Shown here one piece after another: positions 5,580 through 25,865 of a stretch of DNA of 41,385 bases. The notes under the pieces are model-generated. The model did no database searches. It was not told the DNA's origin and saw nothing but the letters and a program-made list of their open reading frames with translations. The stretch's first letter is position 1, and each line of letters begins with the position of its first letter. Source of the stretch: a virus; the IMG/VR virus record IMGVR_UViG_3300031951_000404, one strand, 5' to 3'. A program made the translations under genes and the position numbers.

Positions 5580-6097
5580 AATTCTTGGTCTTCCTCGCCT
5601 ATCTCGCCACGATCCCCGCCGCCAATTGGCTCATCGGCAATGTGGGCACCATGTGCATTCCCAACGGCCCCTGCCTGATTCCGGTGGCCCCCGGCCTCAT
5701 GGCCCCTTCTGGCGTCCTGATGATCGGCGCGGCGCTGGTGCTGCGGGACGCGGTGCAGCAGCTGCTTGGCATTCGATGGGCCTTCCTCGCCATCGCCTGT
5801 GGTGTGGTACTGTCCGTTCTGGTGGCCCCGCCTGCCTTGGTCATCGCCAGCGCCACAGCATTTGCAATTGCGGAATTGTTAGACCTTGGAGTCTACACAC
5901 CGCTCCGCAAGCGCAATCTCAGCCTCGCCGTGCTGGCCTCGGGTGTTGTGGGGGCGGCGGCTGACTCTGCGGTGTTCCTGTGGTTGGCGTTCGGTTCGCT
6001 CGACTTCATGGCGGGCCAGCTTGTCGGCAAACTGTGGATGACGATAGTTGCGGCGGGTGTGTTGGCGCTGGTGCACAATCGCACGGTGCGCGCCTGA
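5576..6097 (+). CDS. yhhQ: YhhQ/VUT-family (DUF165) membrane protein, putative preQ0/preQ1 transporter
   Basis: 173 aa and polytopic. LATIPAANWLIGNVG ... APSGVLMIGAALVLRD ... FAIAELLDLGVYTPLR ... DSAVF matches the queuosine-precursor transporter family pattern. ATGA-coupled to dpdA. Confidence 0.7.
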   Translation: MKFLVFLAYLATIPAANWLIGNVGTMCIPNGPCLIPVAPGLMAPSGVLMIGAALVLRDAVQQLLGIRWAFLAIACGVVLSVLVAPPALVIASATAFAIAELLDLGVYTPLRKRNLSLAVLASGVVGAAADSAVFLWLAFGSLDFMAGQLVGKLWMTIVAAGVLALVHNRTVRA

Positions 6098-9344: not shown

Positions 9345-9730
9345 TGGCTGACATGAGCAACATGCCGTTTGGCTTTGCGCCATCCGAACCGATGAAACAG
9401 ACGAAGCAGCCGCCGCTTCGCCCGTTTCGCCCCGGTGAACAAATCACCAATCCTGATGGTTCCTATAGTACCGAAGTCACGACAACGGTTGAGGATGGCA
9501 GGGGCGGGTGGATGGTTATCCCACAGTTGTGGATGAGTCCGAATGGTGTCGTTGATTTGCGCGACAAGCCAGACCTTGCCGCGTCCACGGCCATTCATTT
9601 GCGGGACAATTTCGGGCTTCAGTTCCCATCGTTTAAGACAGTTTCCGAAGCCGATATGTTTGCGCGTCAGCGTTCAGACATGGGGGGCGCGGGGCAAGGC
9701 AGCATTGTGAGACCGCCTTATGGCCGATGA
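9344..9730 (+). CDS. Hypothetical protein between terminase and portal
   Basis: Its ATG overlaps the terL stop (TAATG). 128 aa. Confidence 0.6.
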   Translation: MADMSNMPFGFAPSEPMKQTKQPPLRPFRPGEQITNPDGSYSTEVTTTVEDGRGGWMVIPQLWMSPNGVVDLRDKPDLAASTAIHLRDNFGLQFPSFKTVSEADMFARQRSDMGGAGQGSIVRPPYGR

Positions 9731-11366: not shown

Positions 11367-12255
11367 AGGCGCTATCTCACAGCAGCCCTATCTGACGTTC
11401 TTTCAGGACGATACGGCTGAATATGACGTGATTGTAGATCAATCCTCGTCAGCGCCGAACCTGAAAGAAGCGACTTGGGGCGCAATCCAGCCGTTGCTGC
11501 CGATTGTCGGGCCGACGATGGGACCGGAAGAAATGGCGCTGGTGCTTGAATATTCGCCCATGCCCGAATCGTTCCTTGAGAAGTTCAAGGCGCTTCAGGA
11601 GCAGAAGGCACAGCAGCCGCCCCCGCCCGACCCGGAAATGATGAAGGTTGAGGCGATGAAGCAGGCCAAGGCCGCCGAATTGCAGATGCGCCAGCAAGAG
11701 GCTCAGGTTGAGATGCAAGTTGAGGCGCAAAAGAACGCGCAACAGATGCAGCTCGAACAGCAGAAAGCCGCCGCACAGATTGAGCTTGAACGCATGAAAG
11801 CAGCCGCAAACATCCAGCTTGAGCGGGAAAAGGCTCAGGTCGAGTTGATGATGGACCGTGAGCGCATGGCCTTCGATTCCGAACGGATGAAGGGCGAAAT
11901 GGCGCTCAAGGCGTCTTCTGCCAAGGCTGACATGGGCATCAAGGCGTCAATGGCCCGCCTGGACATGCAGGGCAAGGCCGCCATGGCCAAGCCTGAGAGC
12001 GAAGGCGAGGAATCCGAAGACGAAGGCCATGAAATGCCGGAAGCGGAAGACATGGACCTGTTCGGCAACAAGGCGCTTGCCGATTCCATGACGCAGATGG
12101 CGCAGGCGCTCACCGAAATGGCAAGGGCCAACGCCGAGAGCCAGCGCATGATGGCTGAAGGGATTGCCGCACTCGGCAGCGAACTCAGTCAGGCAATGAC
12201 CAAACCCAAGCAGATTGTTCGGGGGCCTGATGGCCGCGCAATAGGAGTCCAGTAA
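11359..12255 (+). CDS. Coiled-coil Gln/Glu/Lys/Met-rich protein (scaffold-like; the N-terminus may belong to the portal)
   Basis: 298 aa, with an 8-nt overlap with the portal ORF. Long low-complexity helical repeats (AQVEMQVEAQKNAQQMQLEQQKAAAQIELERMK) and an acidic stretch EGEESEDEGHEMPEAED. Confidence 0.55.
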   Translation: MDKGAISQQPYLTFFQDDTAEYDVIVDQSSSAPNLKEATWGAIQPLLPIVGPTMGPEEMALVLEYSPMPESFLEKFKALQEQKAQQPPPPDPEMMKVEAMKQAKAAELQMRQQEAQVEMQVEAQKNAQQMQLEQQKAAAQIELERMKAAANIQLEREKAQVELMMDRERMAFDSERMKGEMALKASSAKADMGIKASMARLDMQGKAAMAKPESEGEESEDEGHEMPEAEDMDLFGNKALADSMTQMAQALTEMARANAESQRMMAEGIAALGSELSQAMTKPKQIVRGPDGRAIGVQ

Positions 12256-14896: not shown

Positions 14897-16801
14897 GTGG
14901 CTCAAGGTGATCTAAGAGGTAACCTTACAGCCTCAGTTGCCAGCGTAACCAACCCGACCAACCTCACCGGATCGGTGGCCGTCTCTGTTGGCGACCTGAT
15001 CTATGTTGCCTTCTCGCAACAGACCGCCCTCACCGCAACGTCTGCGTCTGACAACCTCGGCAACACTTACTCAGCGGTAAACGCTGGCACGGACGGAGGA
15101 ACGCCGACACACCGCGCGTTCTATGCCCGCGTTACGACTGCCGGAACGCTCACGACGATTTCAGTTGCGGCGACTGCATCAACGAACGATGCAAGCGCGG
15201 TTGCCGCCGTCATTGAGGGGCCATTTATGGTTGGCCCTCTCGACGCCAATCCGGCTAATACGACAGACGGCACAACGCCGTTTACATGCCCAGCAACGGG
15301 AACACTGGCGCAGGCCGAAGAAGTCATCATGGCTTCCATCGGCATCAACTCCAACCAGACGGTTGCCGCGTCATCACCGTTTACCCTTTCAGGGACCGTT
15401 GCCCGCGCGAACATTTCAACTGGCGTCAGTCGGCAGAAGGTCAGCGCCACCACGACGCAGACACCGGAATTTACCGGAACCACGGCGGCTGCAGTTCAGA
15501 CGACGGCGAGCTTCAAGCTCGCACGGCTGGTAACCGCCGACCCCGGAAGCTTTACCGTTTCGGGAACAGCGGCAAATTTGGAACATGGCCGCGAGATAGC
15601 GGCAGACGGCGGCAGCTATAGCATCACGGGCACAGATGCCACGCTTGTGGGGCGGCCCCCCGGCATTTTCGACACCGGGATTTTTGACACCGGGATTTTC
15701 GATCACCCGAGTGTCGCCAAGACATTATCCGCAGGGGCGGGTGCGTTTGCGTTCACTGGAACGGACGCAAGTTTAGAGCGTGGGTTTGAGGTTGCCGCAG
15801 GGGCGGGTGCGTTTGCGTTCACTGGAACGGACGCCAGCCTTGAATATGGGCGTGAGGTTGCGGGCGGCGCGGGCAGTTACGCGGTCACAGGCACCGACGC
15901 CAACCTTGAATACGGGCGTGAGGTTCTGGCGGGGGCTGGCTCCTACGCAGTCACCGGAACCGATGCGAACCTTGAGTTTGGCAGGGAAGTCCTGGCGGAT
16001 GCCGGGGCATTCGCTTTTACAGGAACAGACGCAAGCCTAGAGTACGGCTTTGAAGTCCTGGCGGGTGCCGGGTCGTATGCCTTCACTGGCGTTGACGCGG
16101 CGCTTGAATATGGCCGGGAATTGGCAGCGGGTGCTGGTTCCTATGCCTTCACGGGTACGGATGCCACGCTGCTTTATTCTGGCGGGGCAAAGGTTCTTGG
16201 GGCCGATGCTGGTTCCTATGCTTTCACTGGAACGGACGCGAACCTTGAATATGGCCGCGAGATAGCGGCAGACGCCGGGGCTTATGCCTACACGGGACAG
16301 GACGCGAACCTTGAATATGGCCGCGAGATTGCGGCAGACGCCGGGGCTTATGCCTACACGGGACAGGACGCAACCCTTACCTATGCCGCATCGGCCAAGG
16401 CAATCGTTGCCGAACCCGGCGCGTTCACCTTCACGGGCACGGACGCAACCCTAGAATACGCCGCCGCCAACCAGAACGTACCGCCCCCGCGGCGTTATGG
16501 CAGTGGGCAGTACGGCGAACCCGCGAAACTCATCCTGTCATGGATGCCGCAAAAGAAGCGGAAAAAGGACGAAAAGGCCAAGGTTGAGATTGTCGAGGAT
16601 GCAATTGAGCAGGCGCTTGAGGCCGCTCCGGTTGCCCTGCCAATCAACCCCGAACAGGTCGAACTCGCCGCAAGGCTACTTCTTGCCGAGTATGGCTTGG
16701 CAGAGCTTCGCCGGATCAAATACGCCGAAACGCTGTTGCTTCGCATTGAGCAAGTGATGGCTGAAATGGATGACGAGGAAGTGCTGCTTCTTGCAGCCTA
16801 A
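14897..16801 (+). CDS. Repeat-containing fibre-like protein (13 x 22-aa repeats)
   Basis: 634 aa, GTG start. The N-terminal domain resembles the two 216-aa paralogues. The centre has the consensus AGAGSYAFTGTDANLEYGREV. The C-terminus is a charged helix. Confidence 0.8.
   Translation: MAQGDLRGNLTASVASVTNPTNLTGSVAVSVGDLIYVAFSQQTALTATSASDNLGNTYSAVNAGTDGGTPTHRAFYARVTTAGTLTTISVAATASTNDASAVAAVIEGPFMVGPLDANPANTTDGTTPFTCPATGTLAQAEEVIMASIGINSNQTVAASSPFTLSGTVARANISTGVSRQKVSATTTQTPEFTGTTAAAVQTTASFKLARLVTADPGSFTVSGTAANLEHGREIAADGGSYSITGTDATLVGRPPGIFDTGIFDTGIFDHPSVAKTLSAGAGAFAFTGTDASLERGFEVAAGAGAFAFTGTDASLEYGREVAGGAGSYAVTGTDANLEYGREVLAGAGSYAVTGTDANLEFGREVLADAGAFAFTGTDASLEYGFEVLAGAGSYAFTGVDAALEYGRELAAGAGSYAFTGTDATLLYSGGAKVLGADAGSYAFTGTDANLEYGREIAADAGAYAYTGQDANLEYGREIAADAGAYAYTGQDATLTYAASAKAIVAEPGAFTFTGTDATLEYAAANQNVPPPRRYGSGQYGEPAKLILSWMPQKKRKKDEKAKVEIVEDAIEQALEAAPVALPINPEQVELAARLLLAEYGLAELRRIKYAETLLLRIEQVMAEMDDEEVLLLAA
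15536..16459 (+). repeat. Tandem 66-bp (22-codon) repeat array, about 13 units, with an embedded 15-bp x3 repeat (15662-15706, GIFDT x3)
   Basis: The period was measured on the sequence: aaccttgaat at 16241 and 16307, and at 15902 and 15968. Some neighbouring units are nearly identical at DNA level. Confidence 0.9.
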
Positions 16802-16813
16802 ACAGGAGTACCA

Positions 16814-17707
16814 ATGTCCGAGTTCTTGAACTCACTCAACGCGCCCGAATCCGCCCCGGCTCAGTCATGGGCCGCAGAGGTTGCCGCCGCAGAATCCACA
16901 GCGCCCGCGCCTGAGCCCGTTGCGGAAGAGGCCGCACCGGAACCAGCCCCGGCAGCGGAAGCCGCTCCAGCGCCCGCAGAGGCCGTTCCTGAGCCCGTCG
17001 AGGATGACCGCCGCGTGCCGCTCAAGGCATTGCAGGAAGAGCGGGCCAAGCGGGCCGAGTACGAGCGCAAGCTGGCCGACTATGAGCGCCGCATGGCGGA
17101 ACTGGAACAGCGCACCAAGGCCCCGGAGCCGGAAGCGCCGAACGACCCCGACCCGGAGACGGACCCTATCGGGGCGCTCAAGTCCGCTAAGGAACAGCTT
17201 CGGCGCATGGCCGAGGAAACCCAGCGCCAGCAGTACGAAACTCACCTGAACACCGTGGCTTATAACGCCGCCGTCCAGTTCTCACAGACCGCGCCCGACT
17301 ATCGGGACGCTTATCAATACGCACTTCAGTCTCGCGCACAGGAATTGCGTGTCCTGGGGGCGGATGACACGACCATCCCACAGATTTTGAAGCGCGAGGA
17401 AATGGGCCTTATTGCAGCCGCCGTGAACAGCGGGCGCGACCCGGCGGCGGCAATCTATGAGTTTGCCAAGGCAAGGGGCTACGCTAGAAGCGCACCCGCC
17501 CCTGTGGCTCCCGCCGCCCATGCCCCGCCCGATCCGGCGCTACAGCAGGCCAAGAAGGCGGTCGCTGCATCCGCGGCAGCAGGCGGCGCACCCGCTGCCA
17601 AAGGCGAAATATCAGACGCCGAAGCCGTCAACCTCAAGGGCGCGGCCTTCGATGCGTACTGGAACAAGAAATTTGGCGGGAATCGAAGCTCGATGTTCCG
17701 CGAATAG
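16814..17707 (+). CDS. Putative scaffolding protein
   Basis: 297 aa, immediately upstream of the capsid gene. Ala/Pro/Glu-rich N-terminus followed by a coiled coil (ERAKRAEYERKLADYERRMAELEQR). Confidence 0.6.
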   Translation: MSEFLNSLNAPESAPAQSWAAEVAAAESTAPAPEPVAEEAAPEPAPAAEAAPAPAEAVPEPVEDDRRVPLKALQEERAKRAEYERKLADYERRMAELEQRTKAPEPEAPNDPDPETDPIGALKSAKEQLRRMAEETQRQQYETHLNTVAYNAAVQFSQTAPDYRDAYQYALQSRAQELRVLGADDTTIPQILKREEMGLIAAAVNSGRDPAAAIYEFAKARGYARSAPAPVAPAAHAPPDPALQQAKKAVAASAAAGGAPAAKGEISDAEAVNLKGAAFDAYWNKKFGGNRSSMFRE

Positions 17708-17720
17708 CAACCCCTAACCC

Positions 17721-17820
17721 GGTGCCGCCGACCTACTCACGGGCGCGTTTCGCTAGTCCAGCGTCAAGGGACACAAGGTGCCGCCAACCTGAATGGGCGC
17801 TTCGCCGCTGACCAGCGTCA
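17721..17820 (+). repeat. Imperfect tandem direct repeat (about 45 bp x2) in the capsid-gene leader
   Basis: R1 is 17721-17766 and R2 is 17777-17820. They share the blocks GGTGCCGCC(G/A)ACCT ... GGGCGC ... CCAGCGTCA. Confidence 0.85.
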
Positions 17821-17862
17821 TTGGTCGGAAAATCATCAACACCACTTTTGGGAATTAGTGAA

Positions 17863-18939
17863 ATGGCTACAACCGATTATCCGGTTGGTCATCCGCTTGC
17901 CGTAAAGCTGTGGTCGAAGAAGATTGCGCGTGAAGCGTTGAAGGAAACGATGGCCATGAAGTTCATGGGCACGTCCTCCAACAATCTCATTCAGGTTTTC
18001 GATGACACCAGCAAGGGCGCGGGCGACCGTATCCGAGTCCCACTCCGCATGCAGCTTTCGGGCCGTGGCGTAGGCGAAACCGAGGCTCTTGAGGGCAACG
18101 AAGAGGCTCTCTCGACCTACTACGATGACACGCTCATCAACGATCTGGCCCACGCAGTTCGCGTGAAGACGACCATTGATGCCCAGCGCGTCCCGTTCTC
18201 CGTCCGTGAGGAAGCCCGTCTTGGTATCCAGGATTGGTATTCCGACCGTATCGACCAGATGATTGCGAACCAGCTTGCGGGCAACACCGCACAGTCTGAC
18301 ACGCTTTACACTGGCAACAACGCCGCTATTGCGCCGTCTTCCGGCACGGGTGCGGATCGTCGTTGGCTCATTCGTGAGCAGGACACGGAAACCGACCACA
18401 CTTCCGAAGCCTCGCTTTCCACGTCCGATACCTTCAGCCTCAAGCTGCTGGATCGTGCCGTTGCGATTGCGAAGACCTCCTCGCCGCTTATCCGCCCGAT
18501 CAAGGTGGGTTCGCAGTCCTACTATGTCGCATTCCTGCACCCCTATCAGGTGAAGGACATGCGGACCTCGACCAACACGGGCGACTGGCTTGATATCCAG
18601 AAGGCCGCGATGGGCGGGGGCGATGTGAACGACAATCCCATCTTCACGGGTGCGCTTGGCGTTTACAACGGTGTCGTGCTGCATGAGTGGACCCGCCTGC
18701 CGAATGGCATCGGGGCAAACTCTGCCAACACCCGCCGGGCCGTGTTCTGCGGAGCGCAGTCTGTATCTCTTGCTTGGGGCCAGGGTTATTCCGAAGCGCC
18801 CAAGTACATTGAAGACCTGTTTGACTATGACCGCCAGTTCGGCGTGTCGGTTCAGACGATCATCGGTGCCAAGAAGATGCAGTTCAACTCCAAGGACTTC
18901 GGCACCATCGTAATGTCAACCTATGCCGCAGCGCCGTAA
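17863..18939 (+). CDS. Major capsid protein, N4-gp56-like family
   Basis: MATTDYPVGHPLAVKLWSKKIAREALKET..KFMG ... GDRIRVPLRMQLSGRGVGETEALEGNEEAL matches the N4-type capsid signature. The ATG is preceded by ggaattagtgaa. Confidence 0.85.
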   Translation: MATTDYPVGHPLAVKLWSKKIAREALKETMAMKFMGTSSNNLIQVFDDTSKGAGDRIRVPLRMQLSGRGVGETEALEGNEEALSTYYDDTLINDLAHAVRVKTTIDAQRVPFSVREEARLGIQDWYSDRIDQMIANQLAGNTAQSDTLYTGNNAAIAPSSGTGADRRWLIREQDTETDHTSEASLSTSDTFSLKLLDRAVAIAKTSSPLIRPIKVGSQSYYVAFLHPYQVKDMRTSTNTGDWLDIQKAAMGGGDVNDNPIFTGALGVYNGVVLHEWTRLPNGIGANSANTRRAVFCGAQSVSLAWGQGYSEAPKYIEDLFDYDRQFGVSVQTIIGAKKMQFNSKDFGTIVMSTYAAAP

Positions 18940-18954
18940 GGGAGGGAAAACCAC

Positions 18955-19398
18955 ATGGCTTCCGTAACCTTCACGACTCAGTCGGCAATGCAGCCCACCT
19001 ATAGGGGTGCAACCGTCCAGACCAAGGTGCAGACGCTCGTTTCGACTGCGACCTTCTCCAACGGTGACGTGTACATCCTCAACAATATCAAGATTCCGCA
19101 TCGCGCTGTCATCACGGCAGTCAGCTATCGCGGGTCCGTTGTTGACGGACAATACATCATCGAAATGGGCCTTGCGGGCTCCAACGGTGTGCTTGACGTC
19201 TTCGGTTCGAAGACGTTCTCCGCTACCGCTGTTATCGCCCTCACGGCTGTTTCGCCCAACGTCCTCCCCATGACGGTTTCCGTCTCGGATGATGCCGTTG
19301 AGCGTTACCAGACCCTCGCCGTTCGCGTTGACGGCGCGGCCACCTCTGGAACGACCTCCGTGTCGCTCCAGTTCATGGTGTCTTACTACTGCCCGTAA
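18955..19398 (+). CDS. Hypothetical protein after the capsid gene (possible decoration protein)
   Basis: 147 aa, with GGAGGG upstream. The function is inferred from position only. Confidence 0.55.
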   Translation: MASVTFTTQSAMQPTYRGATVQTKVQTLVSTATFSNGDVYILNNIKIPHRAVITAVSYRGSVVDGQYIIEMGLAGSNGVLDVFGSKTFSATAVIALTAVSPNVLPMTVSVSDDAVERYQTLAVRVDGAATSGTTSVSLQFMVSYYCP

Positions 19399-19406
19399 CG
19401 GGCGCG

Positions 19407-19433
19407 GGGCGGGGGAGCAATCTCCCGCCCTTT
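19407..19433 (+). terminator. Weak hairpin/terminator after the capsid pair
   Basis: gggcgggggag-caat-ctcccgccc (9 bp with a 2-nt bulge) followed by only TTT. Confidence 0.4.
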
Positions 19434-19458
19434 CATCACAGCACAACCAGGAGAGCAG

Positions 19459-20925
19459 ATGCAGTTCGCTGACGTGATCGCTTCATTGCAAGAACGACAC
19501 ATGACCCTCACCAAGTCGGCCTCAACCGAGCACAATGAGTGGGAAAGTCTTGAAGCGGAATATCTGCACTGGCTCAACAAGTTTCCCGACAGGCCGGAAC
19601 TGCTGTTCCAGCTTGGCACCTACTACATGCAGCGCGACAAGCGCGGCCTCGCCATTGCCCTCATCGAACGGTCAGTGAATTGCGGCGCACTCGGCGCAGG
19701 GCCTTACCTCAACATCGCGGCGGCCTACAAGCAGGACCACAACGACGAAAAGGCGATGGAGTACTACAAGAAGGCGCTTGAGGAATCTGAAAAGAACCCG
19801 CCGCCGGGTTCGGTGAACAAGGACAAGGCATTCGCCCTTCACGGTATCGGAAGCATCTACGTCAATGCGGGCCAGCCCGCACTGTGCAAGCTGTGGAGCG
19901 AAAGGGCGCTTGCGGTTGATCCAGATGACCGCCACGCGATGTGGAACAAGGGCCTTGCTCACCTTGAACTCGGAGAGTGGGAAGAAGGCTTCCGCATCTA
20001 TGACACGGCTGGCTTCGACCCCGGCGGCATCATGCCAACGGAACGCAAGCTGAAGACCTACGGCGGCCTGCCCAAGTGGGACGGCACACCCGGACAGACG
20101 GTTGTAACCTACGGCGAACAGGGCGTTGGCGACGAAATCATGTTCGCGTCCATGATCCCCGACTTGATGAAGGACTGCAAGGTTATCATTGATTGCGACC
20201 ATCGCATTGAAAAGATGCTGAATCGGTCATTCCCCGAACTGGAAGCGGTCTATCCGACGAGCGATGTGAACGCGCCGTTCCCGTGGAAGGCAGACCACAA
20301 GATTGATGCTTATGTGCCGATGGGCAGCCTGGGCCGCCACTATCGCAAGAAGGCGGGGGACTTCCCGAAGGTGGCCTATCTCAAGGCGGACCCGGAGAAG
20401 ATTGAGATTTGGGGCCAGCATGTGGCCTCGCTGCCAAAGGGGCTCAACGTCGGTCTTTCGTGGGCTGGGGGCCTGAAGAAAACCCGCTTCGACAAGCGGA
20501 CCATCGTTCTGGACCATTTGCAGCCATTGCTTGAAACCAAGGGCGTCAATTTCATCAGCCTTCAGTATCACAAGTGGGCGGCTGACGAGGTTGCCCGCGT
20601 GGGAAGCCGGATCGGCGTTCCCATCTACCATTGGGGCGATGCGATTGCCGACTACGAGGACACGGCGGGGCTGCTGATGAACCTCGACCTTGTGATTACG
20701 GTCAACACCTCGCTGCATCATCTGGCCGGGTCGCTCGGCGTGAAACAGTGGTGCATGACCCCCGTCATGTGCGCGTGGCGGTATGGCGTGTCCGGGCCTT
20801 CGCCTTGGTACGGCAATTGCGAAATGTACCGCCAGAAGAAAGACGGCGAATGGAAGGGCGTTATCAAGCGCGCCGCTGACGATCTGGCGAAGATGGTGCA
20901 GGCATCAGAGAGGGTCGCGGCATGA
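19459..20925 (+). CDS. TPR-repeat + GT-B (GT9-like) glycosyltransferase, putative protein glycosyltransferase
   Basis: The N-terminal half has TPR-like repeats (AAAYKQDHNDEKAMEYYKKALE; WNKGLAHLELGEWEEGFRIYD). The C-terminal half has GEQGVGDEIMFASMIPDL, GLSWAGG and DLVITVNTSLHHLAGSLG. Confidence 0.7.
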   Translation: MQFADVIASLQERHMTLTKSASTEHNEWESLEAEYLHWLNKFPDRPELLFQLGTYYMQRDKRGLAIALIERSVNCGALGAGPYLNIAAAYKQDHNDEKAMEYYKKALEESEKNPPPGSVNKDKAFALHGIGSIYVNAGQPALCKLWSERALAVDPDDRHAMWNKGLAHLELGEWEEGFRIYDTAGFDPGGIMPTERKLKTYGGLPKWDGTPGQTVVTYGEQGVGDEIMFASMIPDLMKDCKVIIDCDHRIEKMLNRSFPELEAVYPTSDVNAPFPWKADHKIDAYVPMGSLGRHYRKKAGDFPKVAYLKADPEKIEIWGQHVASLPKGLNVGLSWAGGLKKTRFDKRTIVLDHLQPLLETKGVNFISLQYHKWAADEVARVGSRIGVPIYHWGDAIADYEDTAGLLMNLDLVITVNTSLHHLAGSLGVKQWCMTPVMCAWRYGVSGPSPWYGNCEMYRQKKDGEWKGVIKRAADDLAKMVQASERVAA

Positions 20926-21140
20926 ACGGCAACGTCTTCACGTTCCCCAACAAGGGAAAGATGACGGCAAATTCGGTCCTTGATGATGCGCGTGACAAGC
21001 TGGAGGACTGCATTGTCCTTGGCGTCACGAAGGAAGGGGATGCCTATTACAGTGTGTTCGCGCAAGACGCGGGGCAAGTCATCTTTCTACTCCGCGCACT
21101 TGAACACGTTGTACTCACACAGGAGTTGAGCGGCGAATGA
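20922..21140 (+). CDS. Hypothetical protein (72 aa) inside the glyco island
   Basis: ATGA overlaps at both ends. Confidence 0.55.
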   Translation: MNGNVFTFPNKGKMTANSVLDDARDKLEDCIVLGVTKEGDAYYSVFAQDAGQVIFLLRALEHVVLTQELSGE

Positions 21141-21652
21141 TGCTGATCACGCCAGAATATCGTGAACTGAACCGCAAGTTACATGCAACCAATCCCGTTT
21201 ATGGCGTCAGCGGGTTCCGTTATGTCGATGCTGCCAGGAGACTGTCTCAATGGGGCAGGCTTGACATTCTGGACTACGGATGCGGCAAGGCCGTCCTCGC
21301 AGAGAAGTTAGGCCCCGCATACCGCGTCACCAATTACGACCCTTGCATTGAAGGGCTTGACACGCCGCCCGAACCGCATGACGTGGTGATGTGCACCGAT
21401 GTCATGGAGCATGTTGAACCCGAGTTCATCATGCCCGTTCTGAAGGACATTCGGCGTCTGACGCGCGAATTTGCGTTCTTTGTCGTATCGACGGAGCCCG
21501 CGCAAAAGGTCCTAGAGGATGGCCGGAACGCCCACATTTCGCTTCATCCGCCGAAGTGGTGGCTGGAACGGATGGAAGAAGCAGGGTTTGAGGTGCTTGA
21601 GACGATTGACGATGACGGCAAGCACCTGACGTTCGGAGCCGTTTTGCGGTGA
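21137..21652 (+). CDS. Class I SAM-dependent methyltransferase
   Basis: Motif I LDILDYGCGKAVLA, and post-I/II VVMCTDVMEHVEPE. Confidence 0.75.
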   Translation: MMLITPEYRELNRKLHATNPVYGVSGFRYVDAARRLSQWGRLDILDYGCGKAVLAEKLGPAYRVTNYDPCIEGLDTPPEPHDVVMCTDVMEHVEPEFIMPVLKDIRRLTREFAFFVVSTEPAQKVLEDGRNAHISLHPPKWWLERMEEAGFEVLETIDDDGKHLTFGAVLR

Positions 21653-22323
21653 TGGACGGCGACCTGAAAGCGGCATGGAAGCTGCTTGTTAAAAACGGAT
21701 ACCAGTTCTATCGCAACAAGATATGGAAGGAAGACCCGCAGTTCGTGGCCGTTCGCCAGAAGGTCAAGGACATAGGGATTAGCGGGATACCGGATGACCG
21801 TTGTTTTTTCCTTCTTGAGGCGGCGCGGAAACTGACGGTTCCCGGCGATGTGGTGGAATGCGGCGTGAGGTTCGGACGCTCAACCTACTACATCGCCAGC
21901 GGCACGGATCGCGGGATTGAGGTATTTGACTCATTTGAGGGGCTTTCGGCACCATCTGAGGAAGATGGCGACAGTTGGAAGGCGGGCGATTGCCTCGCAT
22001 CCCTTGACGAGTTTGAAGCAAACCTTGACGAGTTCGCGCACCGCATATCGGTTCACAAGGGTTGGATACCCGACACGCTGAAGGAATGCAGGGCAACGCA
22101 GATTGCGCTGCTTCACCTGGACCTTGACTTGTATGGGCCGACACTGGCGGCGCTGACCTATTTCTGGCCCCGCGTGGCAAGGGGCGGGTTTGTGATCTGC
22201 GACGATTACGGCTCGACGCTCTGCCCCGGAGCGAAGGCCGCATTTGACGAGTTCTTTGCCGGCAAAACGGAAAAACCGCTGGGGTTGCCTAGCGCACAAT
22301 GCATCGTGACGAAACTCAACTGA
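21649..22323 (+). CDS. TylF/MycF-family (macrocin-type) sugar O-methyltransferase
   Basis: VECGVRFGRST, FDSFEGL, LLHLDLDLYGPTLAAL and GGFVICDDYG are TylF-family hallmarks. Confidence 0.8.
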   Translation: MMDGDLKAAWKLLVKNGYQFYRNKIWKEDPQFVAVRQKVKDIGISGIPDDRCFFLLEAARKLTVPGDVVECGVRFGRSTYYIASGTDRGIEVFDSFEGLSAPSEEDGDSWKAGDCLASLDEFEANLDEFAHRISVHKGWIPDTLKECRATQIALLHLDLDLYGPTLAALTYFWPRVARGGFVICDDYGSTLCPGAKAAFDEFFAGKTEKPLGLPSAQCIVTKLN

Positions 22324-22334
22324 AAGGACACCAC

Positions 22335-23108
22335 TTGTACAAGGCGCTGACGAGAGCGGACATTCTCAACGTATGGATTGGCTATGACAGCCGTGAGCCC
22401 GAAGCCTTTGAGGTTCTGAAGGCATCCATCCTGAAGCACGCCACGATGGCAGTGAATATCCAGAAGCTTGATGAACGCGCCTTGCGCCATGCGGGCCTCT
22501 ACCGCCGCACATGGCAGGCTGACGGGTGCCAGAAGGTGGACAAGATCGACGGCAAGCCCTTCAGCACGGAGTTTTCGTTCACGCGGTTCCTGGTGCCTGC
22601 GCTTCAGCAGTGGGAAGGCTGGGGGCTCTTCGTAGATTGCGACCAATTGTTCCTGACGGACATTGCCGAAATGCTGCACGAAATGGACCCGGCGAAAGCG
22701 GTTCAGGTGTGCCAACAGAACTATCAGCCGACCGAAGGGCTGAAGATGGATGGCCAGAAACAGGAGCGTTACTACCGCAAGAACTGGTCAAGCGTGATGC
22801 TGTTCAACTGCGCGCATCCGTCAAATCGCTGGCTGACGCCGGATGTGGTGAACGCGGAACCCGGCTCATGGCTGCATGGTTTTGGGTGGCTGCCGGATGG
22901 CGATATTGGCGAGTTAGATCATGGGTGGAATTGGATTGCGGATTGCACAAAGGTAAAGCCGAAGAACGTACATTTTACCTTGGGCGCATGTTGGTTTCCT
23001 CATCTTCGCCACGCTGATCAGCCATACTTTGAAGAATGGCGGCAAGCAGCCAAAGAGATTGGCGTGTGGCGTCATATGTGTGAAAAACAGGACAAGCAAA
23101 CTGCATGA
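22335..23108 (+). CDS. GT-A fold (GT8-like) glycosyltransferase
   Basis: FSFTRFLVP, the DxD motif LFVDCDQLF, and KNWSSVMLFNC ... LHGFGWL ... WNW. A TTG start at 22335 is preferred (AAGGA 7 nt upstream). The track ORF starts at 22299 inside the previous gene. Confidence 0.65.
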   Translation: MYKALTRADILNVWIGYDSREPEAFEVLKASILKHATMAVNIQKLDERALRHAGLYRRTWQADGCQKVDKIDGKPFSTEFSFTRFLVPALQQWEGWGLFVDCDQLFLTDIAEMLHEMDPAKAVQVCQQNYQPTEGLKMDGQKQERYYRKNWSSVMLFNCAHPSNRWLTPDVVNAEPGSWLHGFGWLPDGDIGELDHGWNWIADCTKVKPKNVHFTLGACWFPHLRHADQPYFEEWRQAAKEIGVWRHMCEKQDKQTA

Positions 23109-23590
23109 GTTTCAAAAAGGGCTGGGACTCAAGAACCCCAGGAACTTTAGAACAGCATTGGTCACGATATGTAAGTGACCGCCCCGCCAATGCCTGCTGG
23201 GAATGGCAGGGAACAAAAGACAAAGACGGGTATGGAAAGTTTTGCCACGACGGGAAGCACCTTCGTGGACATCGAGCTTCCTACATGATCAACTACGGTG
23301 AAATACCAGATGGCCTTTTGGTGTGCCACACTTGTGACAATCCATCTTGCGTGAACCCGGCGCATCTTTTCTTGGGTAATACGCGGATCAACACGATTGA
23401 CATGATTCAAAAGGACCGTGGTCCAAGGCAGAAACTAACAACGCAAGACGTTCTTAAAATCCGCGAGTTACTAGCGGAAGGCTACGGAACGGAGGACCTT
23501 TCCATAAAATTCAGGGTTCATAGGTATACTATTTGCCGCATTCGAAGCGGAAGGCGCTGGGGCCATATGCTGAGTGGGGCCGCTGCATGA
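23105..23590 (+). CDS. HNH homing endonuclease (HNH_3 type with C-terminal HTH)
   Basis: CWEWQGTKDKDGYGKF...GHRASYMINYGEIPDGLLVCHTCDNPSCVNPAHLFLGN. A 60-nt sample counted by hand is about 45% GC, against about 60% in a neighbouring 60-nt sample. Confidence 0.85.
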   Translation: MSFKKGWDSRTPGTLEQHWSRYVSDRPANACWEWQGTKDKDGYGKFCHDGKHLRGHRASYMINYGEIPDGLLVCHTCDNPSCVNPAHLFLGNTRINTIDMIQKDRGPRQKLTTQDVLKIRELLAEGYGTEDLSIKFRVHRYTICRIRSGRRWGHMLSGAAA

Positions 23591-23763
23591 ACTTTCCGAA
23601 GCGTGGTGAGATTGCACAGCGCGTGCTTGACCTGACCCGGCCTCAATATGCGCGGGAACCTGTTTCGAAACCATTGATTGCCGTTCCAAAGGACGAATGC
23701 CCGAAGTGCGGGAAGCGCGTGGGGCGGGGGCGGTATATGCACATCAAGAACTGCAAGGGGTAA
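23587..23763 (+). CDS. Hypothetical small zinc-ribbon-like protein (58 aa)
   Basis: ATGA overlap with the HNH stop. Contains CPKCGKRVGRGRYMHIKNC. Confidence 0.45.
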   Translation: MNFPKRGEIAQRVLDLTRPQYAREPVSKPLIAVPKDECPKCGKRVGRGRYMHIKNCKG

Positions 23764-23766
23764 GGA

Positions 23767-24402
23767 ATGACCTCCACCCGGTCCGACATAGAAGCACAGA
23801 TTGCCGACGATCTGGCTCGTTCCGACCTCACCAGCCAGATCACGGCGGCGGTGAACACGGCCATCCGGTCCTATCGCTTTGAGCGATTGGGCTTCAACGA
23901 GGCGTACAAGGTCACGGCCACGCTATCCACGTCAGCCGACACGATGACGCTTGCCAGCCTTTCCGTCCGCTTCCGCAAGCTGGACCGGGTTCGCATTGTC
24001 CGCGCGGCGGGGGATTATCTCGACCTCTACCACCGTGATTATGATTGGATCATGTCTCGCCAGGATGTGCGCGTTCTGTGCCAGCCCGTGGAGTATGCCG
24101 TATATAACGCCGCTATCCATTTCGACAGCATGGCGGACCAGAACTACACGCTGCTGATGGACGGGCTGAAGGAACTCGGCAACCCGTCTGCGTCCTATTC
24201 CGCCAACGACACGGCGGCATGGTTCAATGATGCCCGCGAACTGATCCGGCACCGTGCCAAGCGTGAGGTTTACGCCAACGTGCTGAAGGACATGGAACTC
24301 GCAGCGGCGGCGGGTGCATCCGAGAAAGACGCCCTTCGCATTCTCAAGGCCGAAATGGGCGAACAGATCAGCACGGGCTTCATTCGCCCGACAGAGTTCT
24401 AA
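23767..24402 (+). CDS. Virion protein, putative head-tail adaptor
   Basis: 211 aa, first gene of the tail string. The function is inferred from position. Confidence 0.5.
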   Translation: MTSTRSDIEAQIADDLARSDLTSQITAAVNTAIRSYRFERLGFNEAYKVTATLSTSADTMTLASLSVRFRKLDRVRIVRAAGDYLDLYHRDYDWIMSRQDVRVLCQPVEYAVYNAAIHFDSMADQNYTLLMDGLKELGNPSASYSANDTAAWFNDARELIRHRAKREVYANVLKDMELAAAAGASEKDALRILKAEMGEQISTGFIRPTEF

Positions 24403-24404
24403 CC

Positions 24405-25865
24405 ATGCGAGTCCTGTTCGGACGGCTACAATCTGACCAGCCCGACCTCCTCAACGGCGACCTTGAGGAAGCGGAAAACTGCGTCCCGTATATCACGTCA
24501 TACGGGCCATTTCCCGAACCTGTGGCCTATTCCGCAGCCGCTCCGACCACTGTTCGCGGTGCGTACTCGACCAAAGACCTATCTGGCACCGTGTTTACCG
24601 TGCTGGCTACGGAAGGCAAGCTGTACAAGGAAAGCAGCACGGCGCTCAACGACATATCCCGCACGGCGTCTTACACAACCGCCAACGATGGCCCGAATTG
24701 GGAATTTGAAACCTTCGGAAACACGGTCATTGCCGCGAATGGCGCTGACCCCATGCAGATTTACACCATCGGCACGTCATCGGCCTTTGTTAATCAGTCT
24801 GCTTCCGCATCCGCCCCCGTTGCGCGTCATATATCCGTGGTGCGCGACTTCCTGTTCACTGGCCATCAGCCGAACCTCGAAAACCGCGTCCAGTGGTCCC
24901 GCATCAACAACCCGCTCCGCTTCGGCGTCTCGCAGCGGTTTCAGTCCGACTTTCAGGACTTGCCTGGAACTGACCAGATCATCAAGAAAGTCACGGGCGG
25001 CGACTTCGCGGCCATCCTGACCAATACATCCGTCTGGCGTGCTACCTATGTCGGCGCACCCATCATTTTCCGCTTTGACGAGGTGGCGCGAAACGTCGGT
25101 TGTCTTGCATCCGGTTCCGCCGCCCGGTTCCAGAACCTGACCTTCTTCCTTGCCGACTCTGGCATGTATGCCTTCGACGGGCAGACGGCCAACCCCATCG
25201 GCATTGAACAGGTCGATGAAAAGATATTGGACGAAATAAACAAGGCGTACCTTTACCGCGTCACGTCCACCATCGACCCGGTAAACCGCCTCTATCTCAT
25301 GGCCTATCCGTCTACGGCGTCCACGGACGGCACCTGTGACCGTATCGCGATCTATTCATGGGCCAAGCAGCGGTGGGCGTTTGCCTCGGAAGCCATCGAA
25401 GTCCTATTCAATCACATGACGAGCGGCTACACGCTTGAGGGCCTGGACGCGCTTGGCACGCTTGAAACGCTGGCCTTCTCGCTGGACAGCAGCGCATGGC
25501 AGGGCGGGCTTTCGGCGCTTTCTTGCGTCGGAATCGACCACAAGATTGCACGCTTTACCGGAAGCGCGAAAACGGCACGGTTCACCACGGGCGAAGCAGA
25601 ACTTGTTACAGACGCTCGGGCTTTTGTGCGGTCGCTTCGGCCCTTGGTGCAGGGCAACTCCTCGACGGGTGTCAATATTGAGGTTGGCGGGCGCGACAGG
25701 CTGGTTGACAGTGTATCGTGGACGCCCGCTTCCATCATGAACGCCACGGGCACATGCCCGGTTCGGTCCAATGCTCGGTATCATCGGCTCCGCATGGAAG
25801 TTTCCGGCGGGTTTGACCGCGTCATCGGGTCGGAGGTCGAGTTTACCAAGGAAGGCGTTCGGTGA
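24405..25865 (+). CDS. Putative tail tubular/nozzle-type structural protein
   Basis: 486 aa with a beta-rich composition, following the adaptor-like gene. No diagnostic motif. Confidence 0.55.
   Translation: MRVLFGRLQSDQPDLLNGDLEEAENCVPYITSYGPFPEPVAYSAAAPTTVRGAYSTKDLSGTVFTVLATEGKLYKESSTALNDISRTASYTTANDGPNWEFETFGNTVIAANGADPMQIYTIGTSSAFVNQSASASAPVARHISVVRDFLFTGHQPNLENRVQWSRINNPLRFGVSQRFQSDFQDLPGTDQIIKKVTGGDFAAILTNTSVWRATYVGAPIIFRFDEVARNVGCLASGSAARFQNLTFFLADSGMYAFDGQTANPIGIEQVDEKILDEINKAYLYRVTSTIDPVNRLYLMAYPSTASTDGTCDRIAIYSWAKQRWAFASEAIEVLFNHMTSGYTLEGLDALGTLETLAFSLDSSAWQGGLSALSCVGIDHKIARFTGSAKTARFTTGEAELVTDARAFVRSLRPLVQGNSSTGVNIEVGGRDRLVDSVSWTPASIMNATGTCPVRSNARYHRLRMEVSGGFDRVIGSEVEFTKEGVR

What the first reader, a model, noticed from the sequence alone, without database searches (positions are those of the whole stretch)
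19459..23108. Glycan-building island (TPR-GT9-like, two methyltransferases, GT8-like) directly behind the capsid genes: candidate virion-protein glycosylation system
Five co-directional ORFs with overlapping starts and stops interrupt an otherwise purely structural gene string (19459-20925, 20922-21140, 21137-21652, 21649-22323, 22335-23108). They begin 60 nt after the capsid/147-aa gene pair.

The enzymes:
- The first protein fuses an N-terminal TPR array, a protein-recognition module, to a GT-B/GT9-like domain (GEQGVGDEIMFASMIPDL ... DLVITVNTSLHHLAGSLG). TPR plus glycosyltransferase is the architecture of protein O-glycosyltransferases such as eukaryotic OGT and the Caulobacter flagellin glycosyltransferase FlmG.
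- It is followed by a small class I SAM methyltransferase.
- Next is a TylF/MycF-type sugar O-methyltransferase.
- Last is a DxD (FVDCDQLF) GT-A/GT8-like transferase.

The genome has no NDP-sugar synthesis genes, so host sugar nucleotides would be used. Together this predicts a short O-methylated glycan built on a protein target. The position points to the capsid, the 147-aa protein, or the Ser/Thr/Ala-rich fibres.

Virion glycosylation has been shown for some actinobacteriophages. I know of no description for an alphaproteobacterial podovirus or for a TPR-GT9 enzyme. The alternative is modification of host LPS or flagellin, for example for superinfection exclusion.
Basis: partly seen in the sequence, partly recalled or inferred. 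Interest (0 to 1): 0.8.

Follow-up and report, generated by a model that had tools for sequence, protein, structure and literature searches.

The report
Candidate phage capsid glycosylation gene cassette
A podovirus carries, right behind its capsid genes, a conserved set of sugar-adding and methyl-adding enzymes that most likely decorate its own capsid surface with a short sugar chain, which has not been shown for phages of Gram-negative bacteria; this rests on comparative genomics only.

Summary
Five co-directional, translationally coupled ORFs (19459-23108) lie between the capsid gene pair and the tail-adaptor gene.

They encode:
- a TPR + GT-B glycosyltransferase (distantly GT9-like)
- a 72-aa protein of unknown function
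- a class I SAM methyltransferase
- a TylF-type methyltransferase
- a GT-A/GT8-like DxD transferase

All five are predicted soluble.

The core (TPR-GT, 171-aa methyltransferase, GT8-like) sits at the same position in many uncultured phages and in prophages of Reyranella, Vineibacter and other bacteria, down to 35-40% identity. Accessory genes vary: one relative carries an NDP-sugar dehydratase/epimerase.

Among 66 capsid-related loci, the island co-occurs with one subtype of the small capsid-surface protein encoded after the capsid gene. It also co-occurs with a Ser/Thr-enriched loop in the capsid protein's A-domain. Island-positive and island-negative phages interleave on the capsid tree.

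Best reading: late-expressed O-glycosylation of capsid surface proteins (about 0.5). Rivals are host LPS or host-protein modification, and unrelated cargo at an insertion hot spot.

The capsid is GP4/Bcep22-like, not N4-type. I found no published description. This is a new variant of a known kind. Mass spectrometry on virions is needed.

The parts
17863..18939 (+). Major capsid protein (HK97 fold, PF13252). Candidate acceptor: the loop around residues 178-192 (EASLSTSD, Ser184/186/188).
   Evidence: Pfam E 1.2e-74. Best solved relative is the GP4 capsid protein 8h89, E 1.3e-58. Ser186 is found in 23/33 island-positive and 0/39 island-negative relatives. At clade level, loop S+T enrichment gives p=0.0015. 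The ORF as listed starts at a TTG at 17821; the ATG at 17863 matches homologues.
18955..19398 (+). 147-aa small capsid-associated protein (probable cement/decoration protein). Candidate acceptor with a conserved S-x-S-D-D motif (Ser109/Ser111).
   Evidence: The family profile hits the 143-aa 'Structural protein' chain 26de_W (E 2.4e-4), from a PDB entry that also holds a capsid-protein homologue. The gene at this position in Paracoccus phage KLEP18-1 is annotated as a structural protein. This subtype co-occurs with the island.
19406..19431 (+). GC-rich hairpin (11-bp stem) between the capsid gene pair and the island. Probable leaky terminator or attenuator.
   Evidence: Minimum free energy of the 67-nt stretch is -25.1 kcal/mol, z -2.69. 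Equivalent hairpins lie at the same place in L001, L003, L004, L006 and L007; three of them have canonical U-tracts. Island-negative relatives have one too.
19459..20925 (+). TPR + GT-B glycosyltransferase: TPR array about residues 1-190, GT-B domain about 196-488. Proposed priming protein O-glycosyltransferase.
   Evidence: Pfam TPR_2 E 4e-10. AF2 model pLDDT 92.7. Foldseek PDB hits are SPY/OGT, E 1e-11. BFVD hits include phage 'GT family 9' proteins with target-normalised TM 0.71-0.73. Pfam GT9 weakly hits 6/13 homologues. GEQGxGDE and the H421/L422/G424 part of the HHLxG motif are invariant.
20922..21140 (+). 72-aa protein of unknown function (phrog_11040). Not part of the conserved core.
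   Evidence: PHROG E 2e-9, no Pfam hit. Detected only in the close relatives L007 and L010.
21137..21652 (+). 171-aa class I SAM-dependent methyltransferase. Core member of the cassette.
   Evidence: Methyltransf_23, 38.3 bits against cut-off 27. phrog_24759 E 4e-24. Present in 24 of the 27 island-positive loci that also have the adaptor gene.
21649..22323 (+). TylF/MycF-type O-methyltransferase. Accessory tailoring enzyme.
   Evidence: PF05711, 86.3 bits against cut-off 23. Not found in any of the 86 related phage loci.
22335..23108 (+). GT-A, GT8/GT24-like DxD glycosyltransferase. Core member and proposed chain extender.
   Evidence: AF2 pLDDT 92.6. Foldseek hits to UGGT, WbbM, GlyE, LgtC, XXYLT1, LARGE1 and glycogenin, E 5e-8 to 1e-4. 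D101/D103 and H213 are invariant. The profile aligns the DxD region to WbbM.
23105..23590 (+). HNH homing endonuclease. A mobile insertion at the island boundary, not part of the system.
   Evidence: PF13392 E 6e-8; phrog_1872 E 3e-30. HNH genes sit at different positions in relatives.
23767..24402 (+). SU10-type tail adaptor. Marks where the structural gene string resumes.
   Evidence: PF24175, 27.1 bits. The adaptor follows the small capsid protein directly in island-negative relatives.

Best explanation
The island is a phage-borne protein O-glycosylation cassette that acts on the phage's own capsid surface.

Proposed mechanism (inferred):
1. Late in infection, transcripts reading through the hairpin behind the capsid gene pair express the enzymes at a lower level than the capsid proteins.
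2. The TPR array of the 488-aa protein binds a newly made capsid surface protein. The candidates are the 147-aa cement-like protein (conserved S-x-S-D-D) and/or the Ser/Thr-rich A-domain loop of the major capsid protein.
3. The GT-B domain of the same protein puts a first sugar on Ser/Thr from a host nucleotide sugar.
4. The GT8-like retaining transferase adds a further hexose.
5. The 171-aa methyltransferase, and in this phage also the TylF-type enzyme, O-methylate the glycan.

Shown: gene order, folds, motifs, distribution and co-occurrence.
Inferred: the acceptor, the donors, the order of steps, the timing and the benefit to the phage.
For: - Enzyme identities and folds are established.
- All five proteins lack a hydrophobic segment: the maximum 19-residue Kyte-Doolittle mean is 1.14 or less, so they are predicted cytoplasmic.
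- TPR + GT-B is the architecture of protein O-glycosyltransferases. OGT and SPY are the top solved matches. In FlmG the TPR part binds the protein substrate (PMC7591256).
- Top structural hits of the GT8-like protein include enzymes that extend protein-linked glycans: GlyE, UGGT, XXYLT1, LARGE1 and glycogenin.
- The order capsid protein, ~145-aa protein, TPR-GT, methyltransferase, GT8-like, adaptor recurs in metagenomic contigs, in GenBank MW202512 and in prophages, down to 35-40% TPR-GT identity.
- Island-positive prophage-like loci occur in contigs assigned to Alphaproteobacteria, Gammaproteobacteria and Bacteroidota. A conserved protein target is therefore more likely carried by the phage than by the host.
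- Co-occurrence with the p147 subtype of the small capsid protein: both present 25, both absent 37, discordant 4. Island-positive and island-negative phages interleave on the capsid-protein tree as 8 versus 7 homogeneous clades.
- The small protein is a virion component in relatives.
- The capsid-protein loop at residues 178-192 has more Ser/Thr in island-positive clades (clade-level one-sided p=0.0015). It is the top Ser-enriched window along the whole protein.
- Only 27 nt separate the hairpin from the start codon and no promoter-like site is present. Expression therefore most likely depends on read-through from the capsid genes.
- Island content varies like a glycan-diversifying locus: an NDP-sugar dehydratase/epimerase in L073, and other methyltransferases in L074 and L039.
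Against: - No glycan has been observed; everything is comparative.
- The site just after the post-capsid hairpin also hosts HNH genes and other inserts in relatives. Position may reflect a permissive insertion site.
- The small capsid gene is physically adjacent to the island, so transfer of both as one block could produce the co-occurrence without a functional link.
- The capsid-loop association was found post hoc. For Ser186 alone it is marginal at clade level (p=0.077).
- GT9 and GT8 are the classical LPS-core families.
- TPR-GT, GT8-like and methyltransferase genes also cluster in non-phage regions of bacterial genomes, where the target cannot be a capsid.
- Two loci have the p147 subtype without the island, and two have the island without a detectable p147 subtype.
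Confidence: 0.5

Rival explanations
1. Host envelope glycan modification. The GT9-like and GT8-like enzymes, with the methyltransferases, alter the LPS core, O-antigen or capsule of the infected or lysogenised cell. This would block superinfection or stop progeny adsorbing to debris.
For: - GT9 (WaaC/WaaF) and GT8 (WaaJ/WaaO, LgtC) are the standard LPS-core families. The GT domain aligns with the WaaC nucleotide-sugar motif, and LgtC and WbbM are among the GT8-like fold hits.
- Relatives exist as prophages inside large bacterial scaffolds, so lysogenic conversion is possible.
- The trio also occurs in chromosomal, non-phage contexts, once next to glmS/glmU-like genes identified only by N-terminal sequence resemblance, not by a family search.
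Against: - A TPR fusion is not a feature of LPS-core transferases.
- No GtrA/GtrB-type or other membrane protein is present.
- There is no promoter-like site, no compositional break, and the genes are translationally coupled inside the late structural operon.
- The island co-varies with capsid-protein features.
- The same cassette occurs in phages assigned to hosts of different phyla, whose envelopes differ.
Confidence: 0.2
2. Glycosylation of a host protein such as flagellin or pilin, in the manner of FlmG. The phage enzyme would change motility or mask a receptor used by competing phages.
For: - It has the same two-domain layout as FlmG, whose TPR domain binds flagellin (PMC7591256).
- The host is probably alphaproteobacterial (GcrA homologue), the group in which FlmG was described.
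Against: - No flagellin gene was seen next to cellular homologues.
- The cassette is conserved in phages assigned to very different hosts.
- Homology of the GT domain to FlmG could not be tested.
- This reading does not explain the link to the capsid-protein subtype.
Confidence: 0.12
3. Unrelated cargo at an insertion hot spot. The cassette acts on a small molecule or another cellular substrate, for example as a counter-defence or metabolic function. It sits behind the capsid genes only because that site tolerates insertions.
For: - The post-capsid hairpin site also carries HNH genes and other unrelated ORFs in relatives.
- TylF-type enzymes are best known from small-molecule (macrolide sugar) tailoring (Pfam PF05711).
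- The GT domain family is very large and functionally uncharacterised: 39,737 clusters.
Against: - The core trio keeps the same position and order across deep divergence, whereas other inserts vary.
- TPR arrays argue for a protein partner.
- The island co-varies with capsid features.
Confidence: 0.1
4. Glycosyl hypermodification of phage DNA bases.
For: Phage glycosyltransferase plus methyltransferase sets are known to hypermodify DNA (bioRxiv 10.1101/2023.12.21.572611, found).
Against: - No hydroxymethylase, TET/5mYOX-type or other base-modifying gene was found among the ORFs scanned.
- The TPR fusion and the position in the structural operon do not fit.
- The only DNA methylase (36120-37388) is an N6/N4 type far from the island.
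Confidence: 0.02

Closest known systems
Mycobacteriophage virion glycosylation (Freeman et al. 2023, Cell Host Microbe; known to me only through the summary in PMC12619734)
   Same: Phage-encoded glycosyltransferases put glycans on the phage's own capsid (and tail tube) subunits.
   Different: - The hosts are actinobacteria.
- As summarised there, the glycans sit on C-terminal ends of the subunits. Here the candidates are an internal capsid loop and a cement-like protein.
- To my knowledge no TPR-fused transferase is involved there; I could not check, because the paper is not held.
- Here nothing has been shown experimentally.
FlmG flagellin O-glycosyltransferase of Caulobacter (PMC7591256)
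   Same: An N-terminal TPR domain that binds the protein acceptor and a C-terminal GT-B domain that sets donor specificity. Soluble, cytoplasmic and alphaproteobacterial.
   Different: FlmG is 596 aa, transfers pseudaminic or legionaminic acid, and acts on flagellin.
GT41 enzymes OGT and SPINDLY
   Same: They are the best full-length matches among solved structures (E 1e-11 to 1e-7). Both combine a TPR superhelix with a GT-B catalytic domain that glycosylates Ser/Thr of proteins.
   Different: TM-scores are only 0.3-0.4. There is no Pfam GT41 hit. The sequence motifs (GEQGxGDE; D-x-x-x-T-V-N-T-S-x-H-H-L) resemble GT9 rather than GT41.
GT9 heptosyltransferases (WaaC/WaaF) and the protein-modifying GT9-like TibC/AAH family
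   Same: - Weak Pfam GT9 hits occur in 6/13 homologues.
- BFVD fold matches include phage proteins annotated GT family 9, RfaF and Aah/TibC.
- The nucleotide-sugar motif aligns to WaaC residues 243-278.
- TibC/AAH show that a GT9-like fold can O-glycosylate proteins (cited in PMC7591256, reference 52).
   Different: The window protein does not reach any Pfam GT9 score. No solved GT9 structure is found by sequence profile. GT9 enzymes lack TPR arrays. The donor is unknown.
Serine-rich-repeat adhesin glycosylation in streptococci (a GT-B primer enzyme, then GT8 extenders such as GlyE)
   Same: The same two-step logic. GlyE (5gvv) is among the top structural matches of the GT8-like protein.
   Different: A different primer enzyme family, a different acceptor, and a Gram-positive cellular system. 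The pathway logic is from my own knowledge, not tested here.
Chlorovirus PBCV-1 capsid glycosylation (reviewed in PMC9614988, found)
   Same: Virus-encoded glycosyltransferase and methyltransferase activities build a methylated glycan on the major capsid protein in the cytoplasm.
   Different: A eukaryotic giant virus, an N-linked atypical glycan, and unrelated enzymes. The comparison is from my own knowledge of that system.

Membership tests
Tetratricopeptide repeat proteins | Pfam TPR model above the curated cut-off, and helical repeat structure | tested here: met
   TPR_2 39.4 bits (cut-off 27), TPR_8 37.6 (25.7), TPR_1 29.0 (27.8). The AF2 model has ten helices over residues 3-185.
GT-B fold glycosyltransferases | Two Rossmann-like beta/alpha/beta domains, and matches to known GT-B enzymes | tested here: met
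   The AF2 model has alternating strands and helices over residues 214-458, pLDDT 92.7. Foldseek matches SPY, OGT and XcOGT and phage GT9 proteins.
CAZy GT9 / Pfam PF01075 | Significant match to the family model | tested here: inconclusive
   The window domain gives no PF01075 hit at E<=10. 6 of 13 homologous domains hit weakly, best E 0.0011. One homologue has a precomputed PF01075 hit (P0100). The profile search against PDB sequences found no GT9 structure. hhalign to WaaC aligned only 36 residues, E 0.0015.
CAZy GT41 / Pfam PF13844 (OGT, SPY) | Significant match to the GT41 catalytic-domain model | tested here: not met
   No PF13844 hit for the protein or its C-terminal domain. The resemblance is at whole-architecture level only, TM 0.3-0.4.
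CAZy GT8 / Pfam PF01501 | Sequence match to the family model | tested here: not met
   No PF01501 hit at E<=0.1. The homologue in L004 carries a precomputed hit flagged weak (best hit E<=0.001).
CAZy GT8 / GT-A retaining transferases | GT-A fold with a DxD metal site and a downstream His | tested here: met
   Foldseek hits to LgtC, glycogenin, XXYLT1, GlyE, WbbM and UGGT, query-normalised TM 0.44-0.57. D101-x-D103 and H213 are invariant in 32 sequences. The DxD region aligns to WbbM.
TylF/MycF O-methyltransferases (PF05711) | Match above the curated cut-off | tested here: met
   86.3 bits against cut-off 23, E 2.7e-24.
Class I SAM methyltransferases (Methyltransf_23) | Match above the curated cut-off | tested here: met
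   38.3 bits against cut-off 27. phrog_24759 'methyltransferase', E 3.7e-24.
Phage virion glycosylation systems | A glycan covalently attached to a virion protein and dependent on the phage enzymes | not testable with these tools
   Only indirect support: synteny, co-occurrence with the capsid-protein subtype, and the Ser/Thr-rich capsid loop.
FlmG-class flagellin glycosyltransferases | Homology of the GT-B domain to FlmG, and a flagellin acceptor | not tested
   The architecture is the same. No flagellin genes were seen near cellular homologues.
Gtr-type lysogenic-conversion (O-antigen glucosylation) modules | Integral-membrane GtrA flippase, GtrB bactoprenol transferase and a serotype-specific membrane transferase | tested here: not met
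   No hydrophobic segment in any of the five proteins (maximum KD19 1.14). No matching Pfam families.
Phage DNA glycosyl-hypermodification systems | Enzymes that create a hydroxymethyl or other reactive base for the transferase | tested here: not met
   None found among the 35 ORFs outside the island that were scanned. Small ORFs were not all scanned.

The most novel reading that the evidence does not exclude
The 488-aa protein represents a very large, uncharacterised family of TPR-linked, GT9-like protein O-glycosyltransferases. The family has at least 17,740 clusters at E<=1e-30, many of them giant proteins with 2-6 copies of the domain. In this phage group the enzyme, together with a GT8-like extender and methyltransferases, glycosylates the capsid surface at a short Ser-containing motif (S-[LIV]-S / S-x-S-D). 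That would be the first virion glycosylation system in phages of Gram-negative bacteria, and it would offer a tractable substrate for working out what the whole family does.
Probability: 0.35. Interest if true: 0.8.

Novelty: new variant of a known kind. Interest (0 to 1): 0.62.

Why it matters
Virion glycosylation by phage-encoded enzymes has so far been shown only for actinobacteriophages, where it changes how particles are recognised.

A conserved, portable cassette in podophages of Gram-negative hosts would make capsid glycosylation a broader phage trait. That bears on particle stability, on adsorption to debris or mucus, on antibody recognition in phage therapy, and on engineering of glyco-decorated capsids.

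It would also assign a first function and a defined acceptor to a GT-B domain family with tens of thousands of members that current domain libraries barely detect.

Two cultured bacteria, Reyranella sp. CPCC 100927 and Vineibacter terrae CC-CFT640, carry island-positive prophage-like regions, so the idea can be tested directly.

Tried and rejected
- Sequence searches of the GT domain against solved structures found nothing. With the full-length protein only the TPR part matched; the C-terminal-domain profile gave zero hits.
- Pfam gave no family for the window's own GT domain (part A) or for the GT8-like protein. NCBIfam gave only TPR noise.
- tblastn of the 147-aa protein against 50,697 phage records found nothing. 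PHROGs and Pfam have no family for it.
- No cultured phage carries the TPR-GT in this context. The only record is the metagenomic MW202512.
- The promoter and terminator consensus scan of 16500-24600 found no more sites than in shuffled sequence. The hairpin at 19406-19431 was found by reading and folding the gap instead.
- The Freeman et al. paper is not held.
- FlmG homology could not be tested.
- DNA hypermodification was considered and rejected, because no base-modifying enzymes were found.
- The 634-aa repeat protein as the conserved target was rejected, because it is absent from island-positive L003 and L004.
- Ser186 alone as a marker is only marginal at clade level (p=0.077). I report it as a lead, not a result.
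- Neighbourhoods of cellular homologues showed arrays of TPR-GT paralogues but no obvious acceptor.

Full report
**1. The observation**

The ORF list shows the five co-directional ORFs at the stated coordinates:
- 19459-20925 (488 aa)
- 20922-21140 (72 aa)
- 21137-21652 (171 aa)
- 21649-22323 (224 aa, GTG start)
- 22335-23108 (257 aa from a TTG; an in-frame ATG lies at 22299)

Homologues of the last protein are about 257 aa, which favours 22335. The first three junctions overlap by 4 nt. The gap after the 147-aa gene is 60 nt. GC content (0.56-0.59) does not differ from the rest of the window.

The neighbours are structural:
- Upstream: a P22-like portal, a scaffold-like protein, a major capsid protein (PF13252, E 1e-74) and a 147-aa protein.
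- Downstream: an HNH endonuclease, an SU10-type adaptor and a 486-aa virion protein that a cultured relative annotates as the nozzle.

**2. What the proteins are**

*First protein (488 aa).*
- It has TPR repeats above Pfam cut-offs.
- Its AlphaFold model (34-sequence alignment, pLDDT 92.7) shows ten TPR-type helices followed by a two-lobed Rossmann-type domain.
- The best full-length matches among solved structures are the TPR-plus-GT-B protein O-glycosyltransferases SPINDLY and OGT (E 1e-11 to 1e-7). TM-scores are low (0.3-0.4), because the relative domain positions differ.
- In the viral model library the matches include phage proteins annotated GT family 9 (target-normalised TM 0.71-0.73), RfaF and Aah/TibC.
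- By sequence the GT9 link is weak. The window domain gives no Pfam hit. 6 of 13 homologous domains hit PF01075 with a best E of 0.0011. Only the nucleotide-sugar motif aligns to E. coli WaaC. A profile of the domain finds no solved structure.
- I therefore call it GT-B, distantly GT9-like, with GT9 membership inconclusive and GT41 membership not met.

*The other four proteins.*
- The 171-aa protein is a class I SAM methyltransferase, and the 224-aa protein is TylF-type; both score above their cut-offs.
- The 257-aa protein has no Pfam family. Its model (pLDDT 92.6) is a GT-A fold matching UGGT, WbbM, GlyE, LgtC, XXYLT1, LARGE1 and glycogenin. D101-x-D103 and His213 are invariant.
- The 72-aa protein is unknown (phrog_11040).
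- None of the five has a membrane-like segment.

**3. The phage**

- The capsid protein's closest solved relative is Ralstonia podophage GP4 (8h89, E 1e-58). GP4 has a T=9 capsid with a trimeric cement protein (PMC9698820).
- The closest cultured relatives by capsid protein are Rhizobium phage RHph_Y1_10, Microcystis phage Mae-JY35 and Paracoccus phage KLEP18-1, at 47-50% identity. The TPR-GT search found no match in any of the three. In the two whose gene tables I inspected, RHph_Y1_10 and KLEP18-1, no glycosyltransferase or methyltransferase lies between the capsid genes and the adaptor.
- This is not an N4-type phage.
- A GcrA homologue (2939-3451, E 9e-22), together with prophage relatives in Reyranella and Vineibacter, makes an alphaproteobacterial host plausible.
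- No sugar-nucleotide synthesis gene and no base-modifying enzyme was found among the 35 ORFs outside the island that were scanned.

**4. Distribution of the island**

- The TPR-GT has more than 1,700 relatives in the protein collection, many on 40-48 kb contigs.
- Contigs L001, L003 and L004/L005, and GenBank MW202512, all show the same order: capsid protein, ~145-aa protein, TPR-GT, ~170-aa methyltransferase, GT8-like, adaptor. The TPR-GT is 82, 50, 41 and 35% identical to the window protein in these four.
- I fetched 80 IMG/VR loci by capsid similarity and scored them with profiles. Among loci holding both capsid and adaptor genes, 27 carry the island and 39 do not.
- The conserved core is TPR-GT plus the 171-aa-type methyltransferase plus GT8-like.
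- Variable parts: the TylF gene is unique to this window, and the 72-aa gene is limited to close relatives. HNH genes sit at different places. L073 adds an NDP-sugar 4,6-dehydratase/epimerase (E 1e-49). L074 and L039 carry a Methyltransf_24 enzyme instead. This variability is what one expects of a glycan-tailoring locus.

**5. Link to the capsid**

- *A hairpin marks the insertion point.* A strong hairpin follows the small capsid gene in the window (minimum free energy of the 67-nt stretch -25.1 kcal/mol) and in five relatives; three of those have canonical U-tracts. Island-negative relatives have one too. The island therefore sits just downstream of a general post-capsid attenuator. With only 27 nt between hairpin and start codon, and no promoter-like site, expression most likely depends on read-through of late transcripts. 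That is an inference.
- *The small protein is a virion component.* Its family profile hits a 143-aa 'Structural protein' chain (26de_W, E 2.4e-4) from a PDB entry that also holds a capsid homologue. The equivalent KLEP18-1 gene is annotated as a structural protein.
- *The small protein comes in two subtypes.* Island-negative phages encode a homologous but strongly diverged ~135-aa version (hhalign probability 96.7%). The p147 subtype, with a conserved S-x-S-D-D motif, tracks the island: 25 loci have both, 37 have neither, and 2+2 are discordant.
- *The pattern is not a single clade.* On a neighbour-joining capsid tree, island-positive and island-negative phages interleave, giving 8 and 7 homogeneous clades.
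- *The capsid protein differs in one loop.* Residues 178-192 (EASLSTSD) lie in the A-domain by GP4 numbering.
  - Ser186 occurs in 23/33 island-positive sequences and 0/39 island-negative ones.
  - At clade level, Ser186 alone gives p=0.077.
  - The loop's Ser+Thr count gives p=0.0015.
  - Scanning the whole protein, the windows with the greatest Ser enrichment all fall in this loop.

Caveats:
- The loop signal was found post hoc.
- The NJ tree is crude.
- The small gene is adjacent to the island, so transfer of both as one block could explain part of the co-occurrence.

**6. Cellular relatives**

A scan of one genome per species found the GT domain in two kinds of context:
- Prophage-like contexts, with capsid, small protein, methyltransferase, GT8-like and, where the contig extends far enough, adaptor genes. 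These occur in contigs assigned to Reyranella, Vineibacter, Thiotrichaceae, Steroidobacteraceae and Sediminibacterium.
- Many non-phage contexts in Planctomycetota, Acidobacteriota and Proteobacteria. These often form arrays of TPR-GT paralogues, sometimes next to GT8-like and methyltransferase genes, and once fused with a GT41 domain.

No flagellin or other obvious acceptor was seen. An exhaustive profile search gives 39,737 cluster representatives (17,740 at E<=1e-30), many of 1,000-3,100 aa with 2-6 copies of the domain. The domain family is therefore very large and essentially undescribed.

**7. Explanation and rivals**

The best-supported reading is a late-expressed cytoplasmic O-glycosylation cassette for capsid surface proteins:
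1. The TPR array selects the acceptor.
2. The GT-B domain primes Ser/Thr.
3. The GT8-like enzyme extends the chain.
4. The methyltransferases cap it.

I put this at about 0.5.

Rivals:
- Host LPS or capsule modification (0.2). GT9 and GT8 are LPS-core families, and some relatives are prophages.
- Host protein glycosylation in the manner of FlmG (0.12).
- Unrelated cargo at an insertion hot spot (0.1).
- DNA modification (0.02).

Against the host-directed rivals stand the TPR fusion, the lack of membrane components, the lack of an own promoter, the co-variation with capsid features, and the presence of the cassette in phages assigned to hosts of different phyla. Against the favoured reading stand the total absence of chemical evidence, the hot-spot nature of the site, and the existence of the same enzyme trio in non-phage loci.

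**8. Comparison and novelty**

The closest known systems are:
- mycobacteriophage virion glycosylation (known to me only through the summary in PMC12619734)
- FlmG (PMC7591256)
- OGT/SPY
- the GT9-like protein heptosyltransferases TibC/AAH
- GT8 extenders of serine-rich adhesins
- chlorovirus capsid glycosylation

Five literature searches found no description of a TPR-GT/GT8/methyltransferase cassette behind capsid genes, and none of virion glycosylation in phages of Gram-negative bacteria. I rate it a new variant of a known kind. It is interesting mainly because it is directly testable and would give a first function to a very large enzyme family.

Noticed in passing
window 9720-11366 and 11359-12255: The portal gene is split into two ORFs that overlap by 8 nt. 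The first matches P22_portal positions 1-466. The second aligns to residues 497-651 of the single 683-aa portal of L003 (54% identity). The close relative L001 shows a similar split as two called genes (541 + 280 aa; there separated by a gap rather than overlapping, and the second ORF's portal homology was not checked). This could be a real or programmed frameshift, or a shared assembly error.
   Followed up: partly
window 14897-16801: A 634-aa Ser/Thr/Ala/Gly-rich protein with about 22-aa (66-nt) tandem repeats (AGAGAFAFTGTDASLEYGREV). It has no Pfam family. It lies in a block of genes between portal and scaffold that is absent from island-positive relatives L003 and L004.
   Followed up: partly
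window 2939-3451 and 36120-37388: The phage encodes a homologue of the GcrA cell-cycle regulator (E 9e-22) and an N6/N4 DNA methylase (E 2e-34). The pairing recalls the GcrA/CcrM module of Alphaproteobacteria.
   Followed up: no
window 19406-19431; L001, L003, L004, L006, L007, L015, L030, L040, L167 at the equivalent position: A strong GC-rich hairpin follows the small capsid-protein gene in both island-positive and island-negative phages, with unrelated sequences and, in some, canonical U-tracts. It is probably a conserved attenuator after the high-copy capsid genes, and it marks an insertion hot spot.
   Followed up: partly
window 23105-23590; L006 7472-7948; L014 10672-11109; L167 3298-3873 and 5588-6070; L013 2286-2885: HNH homing-endonuclease genes are scattered at different sites around the capsid genes and the island. 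In L013 an ORF with no family match sits between two pieces of the capsid gene, and in L010 and L014 the capsid match is also split or partial. This suggests introns or inteins in the capsid gene.
   Followed up: partly
proteins P0241-P0387; L098, L137, L160: The GT domain of the 488-aa protein belongs to a family of 39,737 cluster representatives. Many are giant proteins of 1,000-3,100 aa carrying 2-6 copies of the domain. In the Azospirillum locus L160 a 1,381-aa TPR protein with a GT41 domain lies directly next to the 756-aa ORF that holds this domain.
   Followed up: partly
L059 and L060, 8860-10143: Two loci have the p147 subtype of the small capsid protein but no island. In its place they carry several other ORFs, including a 428-aa protein with a signal-peptide-like N-terminus and a glycine-rich domain (PF21722).
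   Followed up: no
window 5528-6097: A 189-aa ORF matches the Vut_1 / putative vitamin (queuosine-precursor) uptake transporter family (E 7e-10), which is unusual cargo for a 41-kb podovirus.
   Followed up: no
L087 8870-13512 (Reyranella) and L094 8741-12790 (Vineibacter): The prophage versions of the island are enlarged by repeated ~410-aa ORFs and, in L094, a 653-aa ORF; neither the one ~417-aa ORF scanned (L087) nor the 653-aa ORF has a Pfam family. In Reyranella the start of the methyltransferase gene is duplicated.
   Followed up: no
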